64,000 bases of DNA from Thermoanaerobaculia bacterium (GCA_035546295.1 DATKBT010000030.1:17134-81133), one strand, 5' to 3'; shown: positions 40,981 through 64,000, numbered from the stretch's first letter. Numbers and translations are program-made. The notes: generated by a model not told the origin, from the sequence alone.

Positions 40981-42383
<1,403 letters not shown>

Positions 42384-42393
<10 letters not shown>

Positions 42394-57314: not shown

Positions 57315-58421
<1,107 letters not shown>

Positions 58422-58649
58422 GGCGCCGGTCCTCGAGGGTCGTGGGAGGGGATCGAGGCGTGCGCAGTCTATCGGAGCCCCTGGAGCACGGCTCGAAGCG
58501 GTCGTGGATCGGCTGAGCCATCGGCCTCGAAGCGCCGGCGACGCGCTTCGCTGGAAGCAGGGGGTGCGGTAGTTTCCGGATGGCTCTGGCAAGCCGAACC
58601 GTCCGTCGCGGCCAGAGCTCGAGAGCCCGACGGATCCGAGGGCGACCCG

Positions 58650-60449
58650 ATGCTCGCAAGACGTCCACATCAGGAGATCCGCCCGCCGCGGCCGGCCGGA
58701 GCGCGATTCGCCACGCTCGGCCTCGCCCTCCTGGTGGCGAGCGGCGGCTGCGGACCGCGAGAGCCGGCTTCCCGACAGCCCGGCGGCTGGGCGCTCGCCG
58801 GCGAGGCGCAGGCGAGCTCGTCGGCCGGAGGGATGGTGGTGAGCGGCCATCCGCTGGCCTCGGAGGTCGGCGCGCGCGTGATCGAACGAGGGGGCAACGC
58901 GATCGATGCGGCGGTGGCCGTGGGCTTCGCGCTCGCCTCGGTGCTGCCGGAGGCCGGGAATCTCGGTGGTGGCGGCTTCCTGGTCTACCGCTCGGCGTCG
59001 GCCGAAGACGTGCGCGCGCTCGACTTCCGCGAGAAGGCGCCGGGTGCCGCGCACCGTGACATGTACCTCGACGGCAACGGCGAGCCGACCGAGCAGAGCG
59101 TCATCGGCCACCTGGCCGTCGGCGTCCCCGGAGCGGTGGCGGGTCTCGCCGAGATGCACCGCGAGCTGGGGTCCCTCCCCTGGGCCGAGCTGGTCGCCCC
59201 GGCAGTGGATCTCGCCGATGGGCACGTCATCGACGAGGTTCGCTTCGAGCACCTGGAGGCCGGCGCCGAGCGCCTGGCCCGTTTTCCGGCCAGCGCCGCG
59301 CAGTTCCTGCCCGGCGGCTCGCCGCCGCCCGCCGGATCGCGCTTCGAGCAACCGGAGCTCGCGGCGACCCTGCGCACGATCGCCGAGCAGGGCGAGGACG
59401 CCTTCTACCGGGGCCAGATCGCGCGGCTGCTGGTCGCCGAGATGGAGAGCGGCGGGGGCATCGTCAGCCTCGAGGACCTCGACGCTTATCGGGCGGTCTG
59501 GCGCGAGCCGATCGTCGTCGACTACCGCGGCTCGACGATCCTCTCGATGCCTCCCCCCTCCTCCGGCGGCGTCACCCTCGCCCTGATTCTCGAGATGATC
59601 GAGGGCTGGAGCGAGCTGGCTCCGTTCGGATCGGCCGAGCTCATCCATCTCGAGGCCGAGGTGATGCGGCGCGCCTTCATCGAGCGCAACCTCTCGCTCG
59701 GCGACCCGGATTTCGTCGACCTGCCGCTCGAGCGCTTCCTCTCCTCCGAGCACGCCGCCGCGCTCCGTGCAGAGATCGATCCCGCGCGGGCCACGCCGAC
59801 GCCACCCTTCTCCCAGATCGTGGCCGAGGGCGAGAACACCACGCACTACTCGATCGTCGACGCCGAGGGCAACGCCGCCGCGATCACCACGACGCTCAAC
59901 AGCGCCTACGGCAGCGCCGTGACCGTCACCGGCGCGGGATTCCTGCTCAACAACGAGATGGACGATTTCGCCGCGGCGCCCGGCAAGCCCAACCAGTTCG
60001 GCCTGGTCGAGGGAGAGAGCAACGCGATCGCGCCCGGCAAGCGGATGCTGTCCTCGATGACTCCGACCGTGGTCGTCGACGCCGGGGGCGCTCTGCGCCT
60101 GGTCGTCGGCAGCCCCGGCGGGCCGACCATCATCACCTCGGTCTACCACACGATCTCCAACCTGCTGGACCACGGCATGTCGCTCACCGAGGCCGTCGAG
60201 AGCCCGAGGGTGCATCACCAGGCGTGGCCCGACGCGCTGTTCTGGGAGCCCGGCGGCCTCGCTCCGGGGACCGTCGAGCGGCTCGAGGCGATGGGACACG
60301 AGCTCCGCGAGCGCGCGGCGACCAGCGGAGACGTGGCCGCCATCGCCCCCGCCGACGGCGCCTGGTCGGGGGTCGCCGATCCGCGCCGCGGCGGCGCGGC
60401 GGTGGGCGCGGCCCGGGCAGACGTCCTCCAGGGCTCGGGTTCCAGGTGA
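58650..60449 (+). CDS. ggt: Gamma-glutamyltransferase, lipoprotein-like signal
   Basis: GGNAIDAAVA, DFREKAP, PPSSGG, TTHYSIVD..TTTLN..GS, LNNEMDDF, PGKRMLSSMTPT, GSPGG, DPRR. Confidence 0.96.
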   Translation: MLARRPHQEIRPPRPAGARFATLGLALLVASGGCGPREPASRQPGGWALAGEAQASSSAGGMVVSGHPLASEVGARVIERGGNAIDAAVAVGFALASVLPEAGNLGGGGFLVYRSASAEDVRALDFREKAPGAAHRDMYLDGNGEPTEQSVIGHLAVGVPGAVAGLAEMHRELGSLPWAELVAPAVDLADGHVIDEVRFEHLEAGAERLARFPASAAQFLPGGSPPPAGSRFEQPELAATLRTIAEQGEDAFYRGQIARLLVAEMESGGGIVSLEDLDAYRAVWREPIVVDYRGSTILSMPPPSSGGVTLALILEMIEGWSELAPFGSAELIHLEAEVMRRAFIERNLSLGDPDFVDLPLERFLSSEHAAALRAEIDPARATPTPPFSQIVAEGENTTHYSIVDAEGNAAAITTTLNSAYGSAVTVTGAGFLLNNEMDDFAAAPGKPNQFGLVEGESNAIAPGKRMLSSMTPTVVVDAGGALRLVVGSPGGPTIITSVYHTISNLLDHGMSLTEAVESPRVHHQAWPDALFWEPGGLAPGTVERLEAMGHELRERAATSGDVAAIAPADGAWSGVADPRRGGAAVGAARADVLQGSGSR

Positions 60450-60546
60450 CGGGCGCGGGGGTGGACCTCTCCGCCCTGCGGGAGCGGACATCGGGCCGTC
60501 TCCCCTGATATCCTCGCCGATCGAGCCTCCCCACCCGCACCGCCTC

Positions 60547-61683
60547 GTGGTTCCGTATGGCTCCGTGAAGATCCACATCCTCTCTGACGACGAGCTGTCC
60601 CGCCTGCTCGATCGCCACCGCAAGCTCGGCCCTTCGCACGAGCGGGCCCCGGTGGACGGGCTGGTCGAGGAGATCCTGCGCGTCGCCAATCAGTTCGTGC
60701 CGTCCAAGAGCGGGTCGGTGCTGATCGACGACCCGCACCTGAAGGTGGCGAACCGGTGGAAGCCCGAGGCCAACGAGCTGGTGGTGGTCGCTCGTTTCGG
60801 CGAGGGCGACGGTCTCGCCGTGGGGGCACGCCGCGAAGTCGCCGATGACCTGGTCGGTCATGTGTACCTGAGCGGTGAGCCTCGGTGCGTCTCGGCCGAG
60901 GGCGGCGAGGGCCGCTCCGAGATCTGCGTTCCGATCCTCCTCGGGGACTCCACCTGCGGCGTCCTGGAGCTGGTCGAGCGGGAGGGCAGCGGGTCCTACA
61001 CCGCGACCGAGCTGGAGCTGGTGCAGATCTTCGCCGGCTACATCTCGACCTCGTTGCAGAACCTCCTCGACGCCACGCGCTACCGCGAGCTCGCCAAGCG
61101 CGACGACCTCACCGGCCTGTTCAACGACCGCTACTTCAACGAAAGGCTCTCCGAGGAGGTCGAGCGCGTCGATGCCACCGGCGAGGACCTGTGCCTGATC
61201 TTCCTCGACCTCGACCACTTCAAGACGGTCAACGACCGTCACGGGCACCTGGTCGGCAGCCAGACCCTGCGCGAGGTCGGCATCCTGCTCGGGCGCGTCG
61301 CGACCGAGGCGGGGGCGACCGCGGCCCGCTACGGCGGCGACGAGTTCGTGGTGATCCTGGAGGCCGCCGATCTCGCCGCCGGCGTCCGTCTCGCGAACCA
61401 GATCCGCGACGCGATCTCGAGCGCCGAGTTCGAGATCGAGACTGCGCAGGGACGTCAGATCTGCCTGGCCGCGGGCAGCGTGACCGCGAGCCTCGGGGTG
61501 ACCTCCTATCGGGATCTCCGCTTCGAGCCGGAGCTCGAGATCCACGATCGCAAGAAGGAGTTCATCCGCTCGGCCGACCAGGCGATGTACCACGCCAAGG
61601 CGCGCGGCAAGAACCAGGTGCGGGCCGGGATCTACGATCCGTACCCGGCGCGCGAGAGGGTCCGTTCCGAGAGCGGACCATAG
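60547..61683 (+). CDS. GAF-sensor diguanylate cyclase
   Basis: GAF (ICVPILL..GVLEL); DDLTGLFN, DLDHFKTVNDRHGHLVG, RYGGDEF, ADQAMYHAK. Confidence 0.93.
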   Translation: MVPYGSVKIHILSDDELSRLLDRHRKLGPSHERAPVDGLVEEILRVANQFVPSKSGSVLIDDPHLKVANRWKPEANELVVVARFGEGDGLAVGARREVADDLVGHVYLSGEPRCVSAEGGEGRSEICVPILLGDSTCGVLELVEREGSGSYTATELELVQIFAGYISTSLQNLLDATRYRELAKRDDLTGLFNDRYFNERLSEEVERVDATGEDLCLIFLDLDHFKTVNDRHGHLVGSQTLREVGILLGRVATEAGATAARYGGDEFVVILEAADLAAGVRLANQIRDAISSAEFEIETAQGRQICLAAGSVTASLGVTSYRDLRFEPELEIHDRKKEFIRSADQAMYHAKARGKNQVRAGIYDPYPARERVRSESGP

Positions 61684-61929: not shown

Positions 61930-64000
61930 TCACTCGTCGCCGGCCTCGTCCAGCAATCGCTCCGCCAACCGCGGCACCTGGGTGAGCATGCGGTCGAGAG
62001 TCGCGGCCAGGCGCTCGCTCGGCTCGCCGAAGCGGCGCGCCAGGAAGCGGAACTCGTCGCTGTCGACCGGCGGCACCGTGAGGTCCTTGGCGTGGCCGCG
62101 CACCATGCGCAGGGCGTCGATCAGGCGACGGTAGAAGCGGTAGGAGCCGGCGAGAGTGTCGTAGTCGCGCGCATCGAGGATGCCGGCGGCATGCAGCTCT
62201 CCGATCGCGGCCAGGACGTTGGGGCTGCGCAGCGCCGGCCGCTCTCCTCCGTGGCGGATCTGGAGGAGCTGGACCACGTACTCGAGGTCGACCAGGCAGC
62301 CGGGCGAGAACTTCGCGTTGAGGGTCCCCGGGGTGACCAGGTGCCGGACCTGGCGCTCGCGCATCGCGCGCGAGGCGGCGACGTCGCCGCTCCAGCTCTC
62401 GTACACCAATCGATCGCGCAGGGCGACCGTACGAGCGCCGAGCGCGAGATCGCCGGCGAAGGGCCTCAGCTTGACCAGCCCCTGGCGCTCGTAGGGCCAG
62501 GCGTCTCCCTCGGGCGCGAAGTAGCTCTCGAAGGCGGCCAGGGACACCGCCAGCGGTCCACCATCGCCGTAGGGGCGCAACCGCAGGTCGAGCTCGAAGA
62601 TCCCCTCTTTGCGAGTGGCGATCGTCGAGCGCAGCCTCTCGACGAGGCGGGAGAAGAACTCGCTCGCGAACAGCCCGTCCTCTCGGCAGCGCCCGTCGCC
62701 GCCGTAGATCAGCAACAGCTCCAGATCGGAGGCGAAGCCGAGCTCCCAGCCGCCGAACTTGCCCAGCGCGCACAGGGCGTGCGGGACCACCCGCCCTTCC
62801 TCGTCGAGCGGCTGGCCGTGGCGTTCGACGAGGTCGGAGTCGGCGAGCTCGAGGGCGCGTCCGGCGAGCACCTCGGCGAGCTCGGTCAGCTCGCGCGAGA
62901 ACTGGTCGAAGCTCGAGCCGTGCCGCAGGATGTGGCGCATGTCGATGCGGAACATCTCGCGGTCCTTGATCCGGTTCAGGATGGCAGCGCGATCGGCGGC
63001 GGCGTGCGCGTCGAGCTCGGCGTCGAACAGGGCTACGAGCTCGCGCCGCGGACGCGCCTCCTGCAGCTCTTCGATCGCGGTCATCACCGGGAACAGCGTC
63101 TCGTGCTGCATGCGCAGGAAGTCGTGCCAGAGGAAGTCGGAGACGCCGAGGAGCTGGGCGAGGCCGGAGAGGACGGCGGGCTGCTCGAGCGAGGAGATGT
63201 CGCGCTCCCAGTCGGGGCGCGCGAAGAGGTCGCCCAGGAACTGGCGGAAGTGGAGCAGCGCCCGCTCCGGGTCGGCGGAGGAGGGGAGCAGGTGCGTGAA
63301 GTGCTTGGTTAGCACGGTGGCGACGCGGAGCTTGCGCACCTGGGCTTCGGCCAGGATCTTGCCGCCGCGAGCATCGGTGACCCACAGCGTGTCGCGCGCG
63401 CGCTGGCCGCTGGTGCGCACCTCCATCAGCTCGACGTTGACCTCGGAGAGCGCGAGGGCATTGGTCAGCTCGTAGAGGAAGCCCACCGTGTCGGGCGCCT
63501 CGATCTCGAGCACGGTGTGCGCCGCCGAGCGCTCGTTGTCGACTCGGATGTCGATCGGCAGCAGCGCGTGGGGCTCGATGCGGGTCGCTCCGCCGCCCGG
63601 TGACAGACCGAGCGAGATGCGCTTGGCCAGCTCGGTCTGGACCTCGCGGTGGCCCCCCTGGTGCAGGCGGCCGATCAGCGCCACCAGCTCCTGCTCGAAG
63701 CGGTCGAGGTCCTGCGCCGACGGTTGCTCGGCGGTCGAGCGGACGTGGAAGACGTCGACGATCCGCCGCCGCACCGGCGCCGGCTCCCGGCTTTCGGCGT
63801 CGCCCAGCGAGGTGAACACCTGGCCGTCGAGGATGGTGAAGCCATAGACGTAGAGGAGCCCACACAGGATCGACAGCGAGCCCAGCGCATCGTGCCCCAC
63901 CAACTCGACCCGGTACGTCGAATCACCGGACCGCCGCACCTCGACCACCGTGTGCCGTTGCTCGTCGAGCAGTGCGGCCATCCGCTCGTGCCGCGCGACG
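61930..64000 (-). CDS. GlnE-like glutamine synthetase adenylyltransferase preceded by two GlnD-type ACT domains; 5' end off the window
   Basis: ACT-like TVLEIEAPDTVGFLYELTNAL..RTSGQRARDTLWVTD; GlnE-like ALGKFGGWELGFASDLEL, LDLRLRPYG, ERQGLVKLRP, GCLVDLEYVVQLLQ; frame is open to the window end. Confidence 0.85.
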   Translation of the reverse strand, partial: VARHERMAALLDEQRHTVVEVRRSGDSTYRVELVGHDALGSLSILCGLLYVYGFTILDGQVFTSLGDAESREPAPVRRRIVDVFHVRSTAEQPSAQDLDRFEQELVALIGRLHQGGHREVQTELAKRISLGLSPGGGATRIEPHALLPIDIRVDNERSAAHTVLEIEAPDTVGFLYELTNALALSEVNVELMEVRTSGQRARDTLWVTDARGGKILAEAQVRKLRVATVLTKHFTHLLPSSADPERALLHFRQFLGDLFARPDWERDISSLEQPAVLSGLAQLLGVSDFLWHDFLRMQHETLFPVMTAIEELQEARPRRELVALFDAELDAHAAADRAAILNRIKDREMFRIDMRHILRHGSSFDQFSRELTELAEVLAGRALELADSDLVERHGQPLDEEGRVVPHALCALGKFGGWELGFASDLELLLIYGGDGRCREDGLFASEFFSRLVERLRSTIATRKEGIFELDLRLRPYGDGGPLAVSLAAFESYFAPEGDAWPYERQGLVKLRPFAGDLALGARTVALRDRLVYESWSGDVAASRAMRERQVRHLVTPGTLNAKFSPGCLVDLEYVVQLLQIRHGGERPALRSPNVLAAIGELHAAGILDARDYDTLAGSYRFYRRLIDALRMVRGHAKDLTVPPVDSDEFRFLARRFGEPSERLAATLDRMLTQVPRLAERLLDEAGDE

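What the first reader, a model, noticed from the sequence alone, without database searches (positions are those of the whole stretch)
61930..64000. GlnE-type adenylyltransferase carrying GlnD-type tandem ACT domains
Seen: two ACT-like repeats followed by one GlnE nucleotidyltransferase module whose DxD reads SDLE; GlnA in this window keeps the target Tyr loop. Known: in enterobacteria the ACT pair belongs to GlnD (glutamine sensing) and GlnE is regulated through PII. Inference: a GS-modifying enzyme that senses amino acids directly, which together with the NifA-like activator would form a non-canonical nitrogen circuit. The full architecture is unknown because the gene is truncated, and similar fusions may already be annotated.
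Basis: partly seen in the sequence, partly recalled or inferred. Interest (0 to 1): 0.6.

Follow-up and report, generated by a model that had tools for sequence, protein, structure and literature searches.

The report
GlnE with built-in ACT sensor pair
The window holds the back half of a 1213-residue GlnE, the enzyme that switches glutamine synthetase off and on; it carries GlnD's two-domain small-molecule sensor between its two catalytic halves, a widespread, database-annotated design that I found in no paper and that occurs mostly in bacteria lacking the usual GlnD/PII relay.

Summary
Window 61930-64000 (minus strand) encodes two ACT folds, then a GlnE nucleotidyltransferase module whose metal motif reads D-L-E.

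The gene is cut by the window edge. On the contig it is 1213 aa and has two GlnE modules, not one. The order is AR-type module, GlnD-like pre-ACT segment, ACT1, ACT2, AT-type module.

- **D-x-E is a family signature.** It is found in 114 of 115 relatives and fits the Pol-beta motif, so it is not decay.
- **The form is common.** More than 2000 proteins and 547 species genomes carry it, mainly Anaerolineae plus this Thermoanaerobaculia family. It is annotated as GS adenylyltransferase. No paper in the library held both "GlnE" and "ACT domain". This scan noted the design before on other DNA.
- **Context points to GS as target.** This genome's only GS keeps the Tyr loop. A Tyr-loop glnA sits next to the gene in 36 of 80 related loci.
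- **The usual relay is missing.** GlnD was not found here or in 49 of 50 other carriers, and 28 of those 50 gave no PII match. This genome's AmtB-linked PII has Glu at the Tyr51 position.

Direct ligand sensing, probably of glutamine, is therefore plausible but unproven. Many GlnD-less relatives have ordinary GlnE.

The parts
61930..64000 (-). C-terminal 689 codons plus the stop of the 1213-aa ACT-GlnE gene. The N-terminal 524 codons lie outside the window, at contig C30:81134-82704.
63955..64000 (-). Visible end of the GlnD-like pre-ACT helical segment (protein residues about 512-539, partly beyond the window).
   Evidence: NCBIfam GlnD models align from residue 512/513. hhalign against E. 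coli GlnD 662-871 is colinear.
63670..63954 (-). ACT1 (protein residues about 540-634). It holds a variable insert between strands 2 and 3.
   Evidence: AF2 model, structural matches, alignment, coordinates
63292..63564 (-). ACT2 (protein residues about 670-760), with the conserved motif A-P-D-T-x-G-F-L-Y-E.
   Evidence: Pfam ACT PF01842 above cut-off
62431..63162 (-). Second nucleotidyltransferase core (GlnE PF03710, residues 804-1047), the AT-type module.
   Evidence: module tree; PDB 1v4a and 3k7d matches
62716..62763 (-). Active-site loop G-K-F-G-G-W-E-L-G-F-A-S-D-L-E-L. D949 and E951 are at 62719-62727. The third carboxylate, D995, is at 62587-62589.
61954..62325 (-). C-terminal helical domain of module 2 (PF08335, residues 1083-1206).
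40981..42393 (+). glnA, the only GS found in the genome and the presumed substrate. Tyr398 (codon 42172-42174) sits in the adenylylation-loop motif.

Best explanation
The ORF is the 3' part of a complete 1213-aa gene for a bifunctional GlnE-type enzyme. The N-terminal module is orthologous to the adenylyl-removing (AR) half of canonical GlnE. The C-terminal module, which lies in the window, belongs with the adenylyltransferase (AT) halves. Between them, where E. coli GlnE has only a short linker, sits a cassette homologous to the C-terminal tail of GlnD: a pre-ACT helical segment followed by ACT1 and ACT2.

Proposed mechanism. The AT module AMPylates Tyr398 of the genome's single GSI-beta glutamine synthetase, and the AR module removes the AMP. 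The ACT pair binds a small nitrogen-status ligand, most probably glutamine as in GlnD. It shifts the AT/AR balance within the one polypeptide, so that GlnD and PII-UMP are not needed.

What is shown: the architecture, the predicted folds, intact catalytic motifs in both modules, the orthology of the modules, the genomic context, and the absence of GlnD and often of PII in carrier genomes.

What is inferred: GS as substrate, the ligand identity, and the allosteric switch.
For: **Architecture.** PF03710 and PF08335 each occur twice, with the ACT pair between them. GlnD models align to residues 512-751.

**Catalytic residues.** G-x-G-G..S-D-x-D plus a third Asp in module 1, and G-x-G-G..S-D-x-E plus a third Asp in module 2, are invariant across 24 aligned relatives. 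Among 115 full-length relatives the counts are DxD 115/115 and DxE 114/115.

**Module orthology.** In the module tree all N modules, including the E. coli AR half, are separated from all C modules by a branch with SH-aLRT 98. The local motifs agree: E-L-N and Y-R-V-D in module 1 as in E. coli AR, and W-E-L-G and E-x-D in module 2 as in E. coli AT.

**ACT folds.**

**GlnD-type origin.** Across 301 genomes of the phylum, the profile of the cassette hits only ACT-GlnEs and the C-termini of GlnD.

**GS as target.**
- The only GS in the genome keeps the Tyr loop.
- Within the class, all 5 GlnE-positive genomes sampled, this one included, have a Tyr-loop GS. Most GlnE-negative genomes have Phe at that position.
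- In 36 of 80 related loci a Tyr-loop glnA lies directly beside the ACT-glnE gene.

**Relay missing.**
- No GlnD was found here; the assembly is 94% complete.
- No GlnD was found in 49 of 50 other carrier genomes or in 5 of 5 family relatives.
- 28 of those 50 carriers gave no PII match at all, among them genomes held as a 5.4-Mb chromosome record or as contigs of 5.2 and 10.4 Mb.
- This genome's AmtB-linked PII has Glu where E. coli GlnK has Tyr51.

[quoted passage not shown] 2010).
Against: **No biochemistry.** Ligand identity and allostery are inferred from homology alone.

**Absence of GlnD is not specific to the ACT form.** In the same phylum, about 57 of 86 genomes with ordinary-length GlnE also lack GlnD. 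A GlnE can evidently do without GlnD and without an ACT insert.

**Canonical GlnE already senses glutamine** (PMC6490700), so the ACT pair may add a different input.

**This genome does have a PII.** The helical sub-domain that precedes the AT core is retained. From my recollection of Clancy et al. 2007, the corresponding region of E. coli GlnE is the central regulatory domain that binds PII. PII control is therefore not excluded here.

**No docking information.** The full-length model has pTM 0.49, so nothing can be said about how the ACT pair contacts either catalytic module.

**Below curated thresholds.** NCBIfam GlnE equivalog models score below their cut-offs: 437 against 625, 395 against 487, and 327 against 724.

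**Loose local context.** glnE is not adjacent to glnA in this genome.
Confidence: 0.6

Rival explanations
1. It is the same GS-modifying enzyme, but the ACT pair is not a glutamine sensor. It would bind another metabolite (another amino acid or a nucleotide), or it would serve only as a structural or oligomerisation spacer. In this genome, regulation would come from the unmodified AmtB-linked PII and from the glutamine sensitivity intrinsic to GlnE modules.
For: ACT domains bind many different ligands, and the best structural matches are Thr/Lys-, Ile- and Arg-binding regulators. Canonical GlnE responds to glutamine without ACT domains (PMC6490700). A PII gene is present here. Ordinary GlnE without GlnD is common in the phylum.
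Against: Within 301 genomes of the phylum, the cassette's only detectable relatives are GlnD tails, including the pre-ACT segment. The loop motifs at the ACT beta1-alpha1 position are invariant across Chloroflexota and Acidobacteriota members, which argues for a conserved ligand site rather than a spacer. 28 of 50 carrier genomes gave no PII match.
Confidence: 0.25
2. The protein is a functional replacement for GlnD. Its N-terminal part (NT module, helical domain, ACT-ACT) resembles a GlnD without the HD domain and would modify PII or another protein rather than GS.
For: The order NT - PF08335 - ACT - ACT mimics GlnD minus HD. The genome lacks GlnD.
Against: Module 1 falls inside the clade of GlnE AR modules and scores 153.8 bits on the GlnE NT model, against 34.8 bits on the GlnD model. 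The PII here lacks Tyr51. Most carrier genomes gave no canonical PII match. Synteny is with glnA.
Confidence: 0.05
3. The D-x-E change has disabled or re-purposed module 2. The protein would then be only an adenylyl-removing enzyme or a pseudo-enzyme scaffold.
For: All 7 canonical C modules whose loop matched my motif pattern, E. coli included, have D-x-D. Every ACT-type C module has D-x-E.
Against: From my own knowledge, the Pol-beta nucleotidyltransferase signature allows Asp or Glu at this position, as in kanamycin nucleotidyltransferase (D50/E52). The Glu is invariant. The glycine loop, the Ser and the third Asp are all conserved. This pattern indicates purifying selection on an active site.
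Confidence: 0.05

Closest known systems
E. coli GlnE / ATase (946 aa; structures 1v4a for the AR domain and 3k7d for the AT domain)
   Same: It has two tandem Pol-beta-type nucleotidyltransferase modules, each with a helical PF08335 domain, in the same AR-then-AT order. A Tyr-loop GSI-beta is present as the likely substrate.
   Different: A cassette of about 250 residues (pre-ACT segment plus two ACT domains) replaces the short inter-module linker. The AT site reads D-x-E rather than D-x-D. It scores below the NCBIfam equivalog cut-offs. The host has no GlnD, and its PII has no Tyr51.
GlnD, the PII uridylyltransferase / uridylyl-removing enzyme (E. coli, 890 aa)
   Same: The C-terminal module of GlnD (pre-ACT helices, ACT1, ACT2) is the closest relative of the insert. 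The NT and PF08335 domains are distantly shared.
   Different: There is no HD domain. The NT modules are of GlnE type. TIGR01693 scores 87 bits against a cut-off of 519. The likely target is GS, not PII.
Actinomycete GlnE (Mycobacterium, Streptomyces, Corynebacterium)
   Same: It is a GlnE reported to act on GS without control by GlnK/PII (PMC3612183).
   Different: It has the canonical two-module architecture with no ACT insert, and those organisms still have GlnD and GlnK.
Other ACT-bearing GlnE layouts noted earlier in this scan (N-terminal ACT pair, split genes, single-module forms)
   Same: They combine a GlnD-type ACT pair with GlnE nucleotidyltransferase modules (these are unverified notes).
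   Different: Here the ACT pair is internal and both modules lie in one gene in the canonical order. I did not examine the other layouts.

Membership tests
GlnE (GS adenylyltransferase / adenylyl-removing enzyme) | Two tandem nucleotidyltransferase modules (PF03710), each followed by a helical PF08335 domain | tested here: met
   PF03710 in 2 stretches (E 6.8e-83) and PF08335 in 2 stretches (E 1.1e-38); two PF03710 matches lie in one open frame.
GlnE (GS adenylyltransferase / adenylyl-removing enzyme) | Intact Pol-beta catalytic motif (glycine loop, D-x-[DE], third Asp) in both modules | tested here: met
   the residues are invariant. Module 1 has D235/D237/D273 and module 2 has D949/E951/D995.
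GlnE (GS adenylyltransferase / adenylyl-removing enzyme) | N module orthologous to AR halves and C module to AT halves | tested here: met
   a branch with SH-aLRT 98 separates all N modules (E. coli AR included) from all C modules. The C side is not itself resolved as one clade.
GlnE (GS adenylyltransferase / adenylyl-removing enzyme) | Score above the curated NCBIfam equivalog cut-off | tested here: not met
   NF010707 437 against 625, NF008292 395 against 487, NF010706 327 against 724.
GlnE (GS adenylyltransferase / adenylyl-removing enzyme) | A GSI-beta substrate with the adenylylatable Tyr loop in the same genome | tested here: met
   A Tyr-loop glnA is syntenic in 36 of 80 related loci.
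GlnE (GS adenylyltransferase / adenylyl-removing enzyme) | Reversible AMPylation of GS demonstrated | not testable with these tools
   This needs an enzyme assay.
GlnD (PII uridylyltransferase / UR enzyme) | An HD phosphohydrolase domain between the NT and ACT domains | tested here: not met
   One search shows no HD family. In one search the GlnD model matches only positions 42-306 and 628-839.
GlnD (PII uridylyltransferase / UR enzyme) | A C-terminal tandem ACT pair with the preceding helical segment | tested here: met
   (PRK05092 positions 699-918, E 3.6e-33), and (E. coli GlnD 662-871).
ACT domain | A beta-alpha-beta-beta-alpha-beta ferredoxin-like fold, present twice and packed as a pair | tested here: met
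   (pLDDT 88, pTM 0.86); 3l76_B Z 10.8 across both repeats, and single ACT domains at Z 5-6 with rmsd 1.8-2.1. Pfam ACT passes its cut-off for ACT2 only. These are predicted structures, not solved ones.
ACT domain | Binding of a small-molecule ligand | not testable with these tools
   No ligand assay or glutamine docking tool is available.

The most novel reading that the evidence does not exclude
ACT-GlnE collapses the classical GlnD -> PII -> GlnE cascade into a single protein. The GlnD-derived ACT pair would read glutamine directly and toggle the AR and AT sites. This would explain why about 550 species, most of them Anaerolineae, carry it next to glnA while mostly lacking GlnD and often PII.
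Probability: 0.45. Interest if true: 0.65.

Novelty: new variant of a known kind. Interest (0 to 1): 0.5.

Why it matters
Control of GS by adenylylation is a textbook signalling cascade, worked out in Proteobacteria. This variant suggests that large, little-studied lineages (Anaerolineae, some Acidobacteriota) run it with one self-sensing enzyme and without GlnD, and often without PII. If that is confirmed, three things follow. It would give a minimal and portable nitrogen switch. It would provide a tractable system for learning how GlnD-type ACT pairs read glutamine; no GlnD chain appeared in my PDB searches. It would also correct automated annotation, which currently calls these proteins plain GlnE, "ACT domain-containing" or "DUF294".

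Tried and rejected
1. **Pairwise scores against the E. coli halves.** phmmer scores of each module against E. coli AR and AT did not discriminate: both modules score slightly higher on AR. I used a 50-module tree and local motifs instead.
2. **Sequence search of the PDB with the ACT profile.** It gave only a marginal hit to a Rel ACT domain (E 0.08). Foldseek TM-scores were low because the query has two domains. The ACT call rests on the wide VIA search.
3. **Full-length AlphaFold2 model.** Residues 14-1213 gave pLDDT 83 but pTM 0.49. I draw no conclusion on where the ACT pair docks.
4. **"GlnD absence proves replacement."** I rejected this argument as it stands. The within-phylum control shows many ordinary GlnE genomes that also lack GlnD.
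5. **PII Tyr51 loss as a general correlate.** This is rejected. The 8 full-length PII matches from the 39-44% group that I take, unchecked, to be Anaerolineae keep Tyr51. Only the three Acidobacteriota PIIs, including this genome's, have Glu.
6. **Literature.** Three searches combining GlnE or GS adenylyltransferase with ACT domain(s) found no paper. Zhang et al. 2010 is not held in the library.
7. **The ATG at window 63981.** It was considered as a start and rejected. It is internal (Met531), the frame stays open upstream, and homologues align throughout.
8. **Operon link to nitrogen genes.** None was found here. The neighbours are GAF-GGDEF, GGT, GCS2 and SPFH genes.

Full report
**1. What is in the window**

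The longest frame over 61930-64000 is on the minus strand. It ends at a stop at 61930-61932 and runs off the window's right edge. Its 689 residues match as follows:
- Pfam GlnE (PF03710) at residues 280-523
- the helical GlnD_UR_UTase domain (PF08335) at 559-682
- ACT (PF01842) at 162-207

NCBIfam GlnD models align to residues 4-227 through their C-terminal ACT region. The active-site loop reads G-K-F-G-G-W-E-L-G-F-A-S-D-L-E-L at 62716-62763.

**2. The whole gene**

The window is G000:C30:17134-81133. The frame stays open upstream, and a second GlnE-like stretch lies beyond the window edge. The most plausible start is the ATG at C30:82704, which gives 1213 aa.

Pfam and NCBIfam on the full protein give this layout:

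| Segment | Residues |
|---|---|
| GlnE NT core 1 | 82-325 |
| PF08335 helical domain | 347-489 |
| Segment aligning to the tail of GlnD | 512-751 |
| GlnE NT core 2 | about 804-1047 |
| PF08335 helical domain | about 1083-1206 |

So this is a two-module GlnE with the ACT pair in the middle, not a single-module enzyme with N-terminal ACT domains. All three NCBIfam GlnE equivalog models score below their cut-offs: 437 against 625, 395 against 487, and 327 against 724.

**3. ACT folds**

An AlphaFold2 model of residues 495-790, built with 24 homologues, has pLDDT 88.4 and pTM 0.86. It shows two beta-alpha-beta-beta-alpha units.
- A Foldseek-independent structural search puts the tandem ACT region of Synechocystis aspartate kinase first (3l76_B, Z 10.8, 156 residues, rmsd 4.4, spanning both repeats).
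- Next come threonine deaminase regulatory domains (Z 7.9 and 7.2), CASTOR1/2, and single ACT or ACT-like domains (Z 5-6, rmsd 1.8-2.1).
- Foldseek agrees: ACT-bearing large glutamate dehydrogenase, aspartate kinase, IlvA and SerB.

**4. The insert is GlnD-type**

- The GlnD models align from about 30 residues before ACT1, a segment containing a Y-x-x-x-F...H motif, to the end of ACT2.
- A profile of the cassette aligns colinearly to E. coli GlnD 662-871 (E 4.5e-5).
- Searched over 301 genomes of the phylum at E <= 1e-10, the same profile finds only the ACT-GlnEs of this family and the C-termini of bona fide GlnD genes (the places coincide with those).

**5. Which module is which**

Pairwise scores against the E. 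coli halves do not discriminate. I therefore built a maximum-likelihood tree of 50 modules: 14 ACT-type proteins, 10 ordinary GlnEs from the same phylum, and E. coli. All N-terminal modules, including the E. coli AR half, fall on one side of a branch with SH-aLRT 98, and all C-terminal modules fall on the other.

Local motifs agree. Module 1 has E-L-N-Y-S-S-D-I-D and Y-R-V-D like AR. Module 2 has G-G-W-E-L-G and E-x-D like AT. The order is therefore AR, ACT, ACT, AT, and the module in the window is the AT-type one.

**6. D-x-E**

Among 115 full-length relatives, module 1 has D-x-D in 115 and module 2 has D-x-E in 114. The glycine loop, the Ser and the third Asp are invariant. From my own knowledge, the Pol-beta nucleotidyltransferase signature allows Asp or Glu at this position. 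This looks like a conserved active site, not decay.

**7. Distribution and annotation**

More than 2000 proteins of about 1200 aa share the architecture. They come mostly from Anaerolineae and other Chloroflexota, with the closest ones (77-83% identity) from Thermoanaerobaculia-type metagenome bins. Sources name them "glutamine synthetase adenylyltransferase", "ACT domain-containing protein" or "DUF294...". In a one-genome-per-species collection, 547 species encode the cassette.

In a sample of 301 genomes of this phylum, only the window's own family has it: 6 of 6, counting this genome. The sampled genomes of the other families in its order and class show no GlnE at all, while other classes have ordinary-length GlnE.

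No paper in the searched library contains both "GlnE" and "ACT domain". The scan's own notes record the same design in at least 59 other genomes. I treated those notes as leads only.

**8. Is GS the target?**

- The genome has a single GS, at window 40981-42393, with Tyr398 in the canonical loop.
- Within the class, all 5 GlnE-positive genomes sampled, this one included, have D-I-Y-D-L in the GS loop.
- The GS copies read from the GlnE-negative genomes mostly have Phe at that position. There are two exceptions.
- In 36 of the 80 related loci, a glnA 59-68% identical to the window's and keeping D-K-D-[IL]-Y lies directly beside the ACT-glnE gene. It is either divergent upstream or on the same strand downstream.

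This is conserved-neighbourhood evidence that GS is the substrate. In the present genome the two genes are 20 kb apart, and the glnE neighbours are a convergent GAF-GGDEF gene, gamma-glutamyltranspeptidase, a GCS2 ligase and SPFH genes.

**9. The relay**

*This genome.* The only matches to the GlnD model in this 94%-complete assembly are to ACT-GlnE itself. Two PII-family genes exist. One follows amtB and has Glu where E. coli GlnK has Tyr51. The other sits next to an efflux pump.

*Other carriers.* Of 50 other carrier genomes, 49 have no GlnD. The exception is a fragmented bin labelled Nitrospinota. Of the same 50, 28 have no PII match at all, and only about 12 have a strong one. Those with none or only a weak match include genomes held as a 5.4-Mb chromosome record or as contigs of 5.2 and 10.4 Mb. 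Completeness values are not given for these 50, so "not found" is the proper wording.

*What canonical GlnE needs.* It uses PII plus glutamine for adenylylation, and PII-UMP plus 2-oxoglutarate for deadenylylation (PMC6490700). PII-UMP cannot exist in the classical form here.

**10. Caution**

In the same phylum sample, about 86 genomes have ordinary-length GlnE, and only 29 of them have GlnD. Doing without GlnD therefore does not require an ACT insert. Actinomycete GlnE is already reported not to be regulated by GlnK/PII (PMC3612183).

The carrier and non-carrier counts are also phylogenetically non-independent. The full-length model (pTM 0.49) says nothing about inter-domain contacts.

Three unpublished genomes are included in the tallies:
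- G098: ordinary GlnE plus GlnD
- G196: ordinary GlnE
- G073: a GS with Phe in the loop

Removing them changes each count by at most two, and no conclusion rests on them.

**11. Verdict**

It is a member of a large, database-annotated clade that I found described in no paper: GlnE carrying GlnD's ACT sensor.

The most likely working is a self-contained AR/AT switch on GS, gated by a small ligand at the ACT pair, probably glutamine. The architecture and context are shown. The ligand and the allostery are inferred. I rate it a new variant of a known kind, of moderate interest.

Noticed in passing
L014-L089 (related loci), for example L015:2993-4354 and L052:8301-9707: In Anaerolineae-type genomes a Tyr-loop GSI-beta glnA lies directly beside ACT-glnE in 36 of 80 loci. 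It is either divergent upstream or on the same strand downstream.
   Followed up: yes
G001-G050 (carrier genomes): 28 of 50 ACT-GlnE genomes give no PII (PF00543) match, and only about 12 have a strong one. The same search rings in 13 of 14 control genomes. Where a PII exists, it is in some genomes (G017, G021, G002) within 7-15 kb of glnE.
   Followed up: partly
G000:C85:5926-7719 (L006:46-1839): An amtB-glnK pair whose PII has Glu at the Tyr51 position (T-loop R-S-H-K-E-A-G). The same T-loop is seen in two other Acidobacteriota carriers (L149, L150). The other full-length carrier PIIs keep Tyr51; I take the 39-44% group to be Anaerolineae.
   Followed up: partly
G000:C96:25487-25828 (L007:1501-1842): A second, divergent PII-family gene (PF00543, 51.8 bits) lies immediately downstream of an RND/CusA-like efflux pump gene. 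The pump assignment is from reading the sequence only.
   Followed up: no
phylum sample: In the phylum sample, GlnE was found in this class only in the window's own family, and it is the ACT type. Its closest relatives outside the family are from Chloroflexota at about 45-50% identity. The patchy distribution suggests lateral transfer. About 57 of 86 ordinary GlnE genomes in the phylum lack GlnD.
   Followed up: partly
window 57318-61683: Next to glnE lie a GCS2-type carboxylate-amine ligase (minus strand, PF04107), a gamma-glutamyltranspeptidase (57747-60449, plus strand) and a GAF-GGDEF diguanylate cyclase (60547-61683, plus strand, convergent with glnE). The first two suggest a small gamma-glutamyl metabolism cluster.
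   Followed up: partly
Its link to glnE was not tested.
   Followed up: no
L114 (G141:C356:4503-5927): A GlnE-negative genome of the same class has a GSI-beta-like GS (61% identical in the tblastn) that still keeps Tyr in the loop, next to a second GS copy. It is an exception to the Tyr-loop/GlnE co-occurrence.
   Followed up: no
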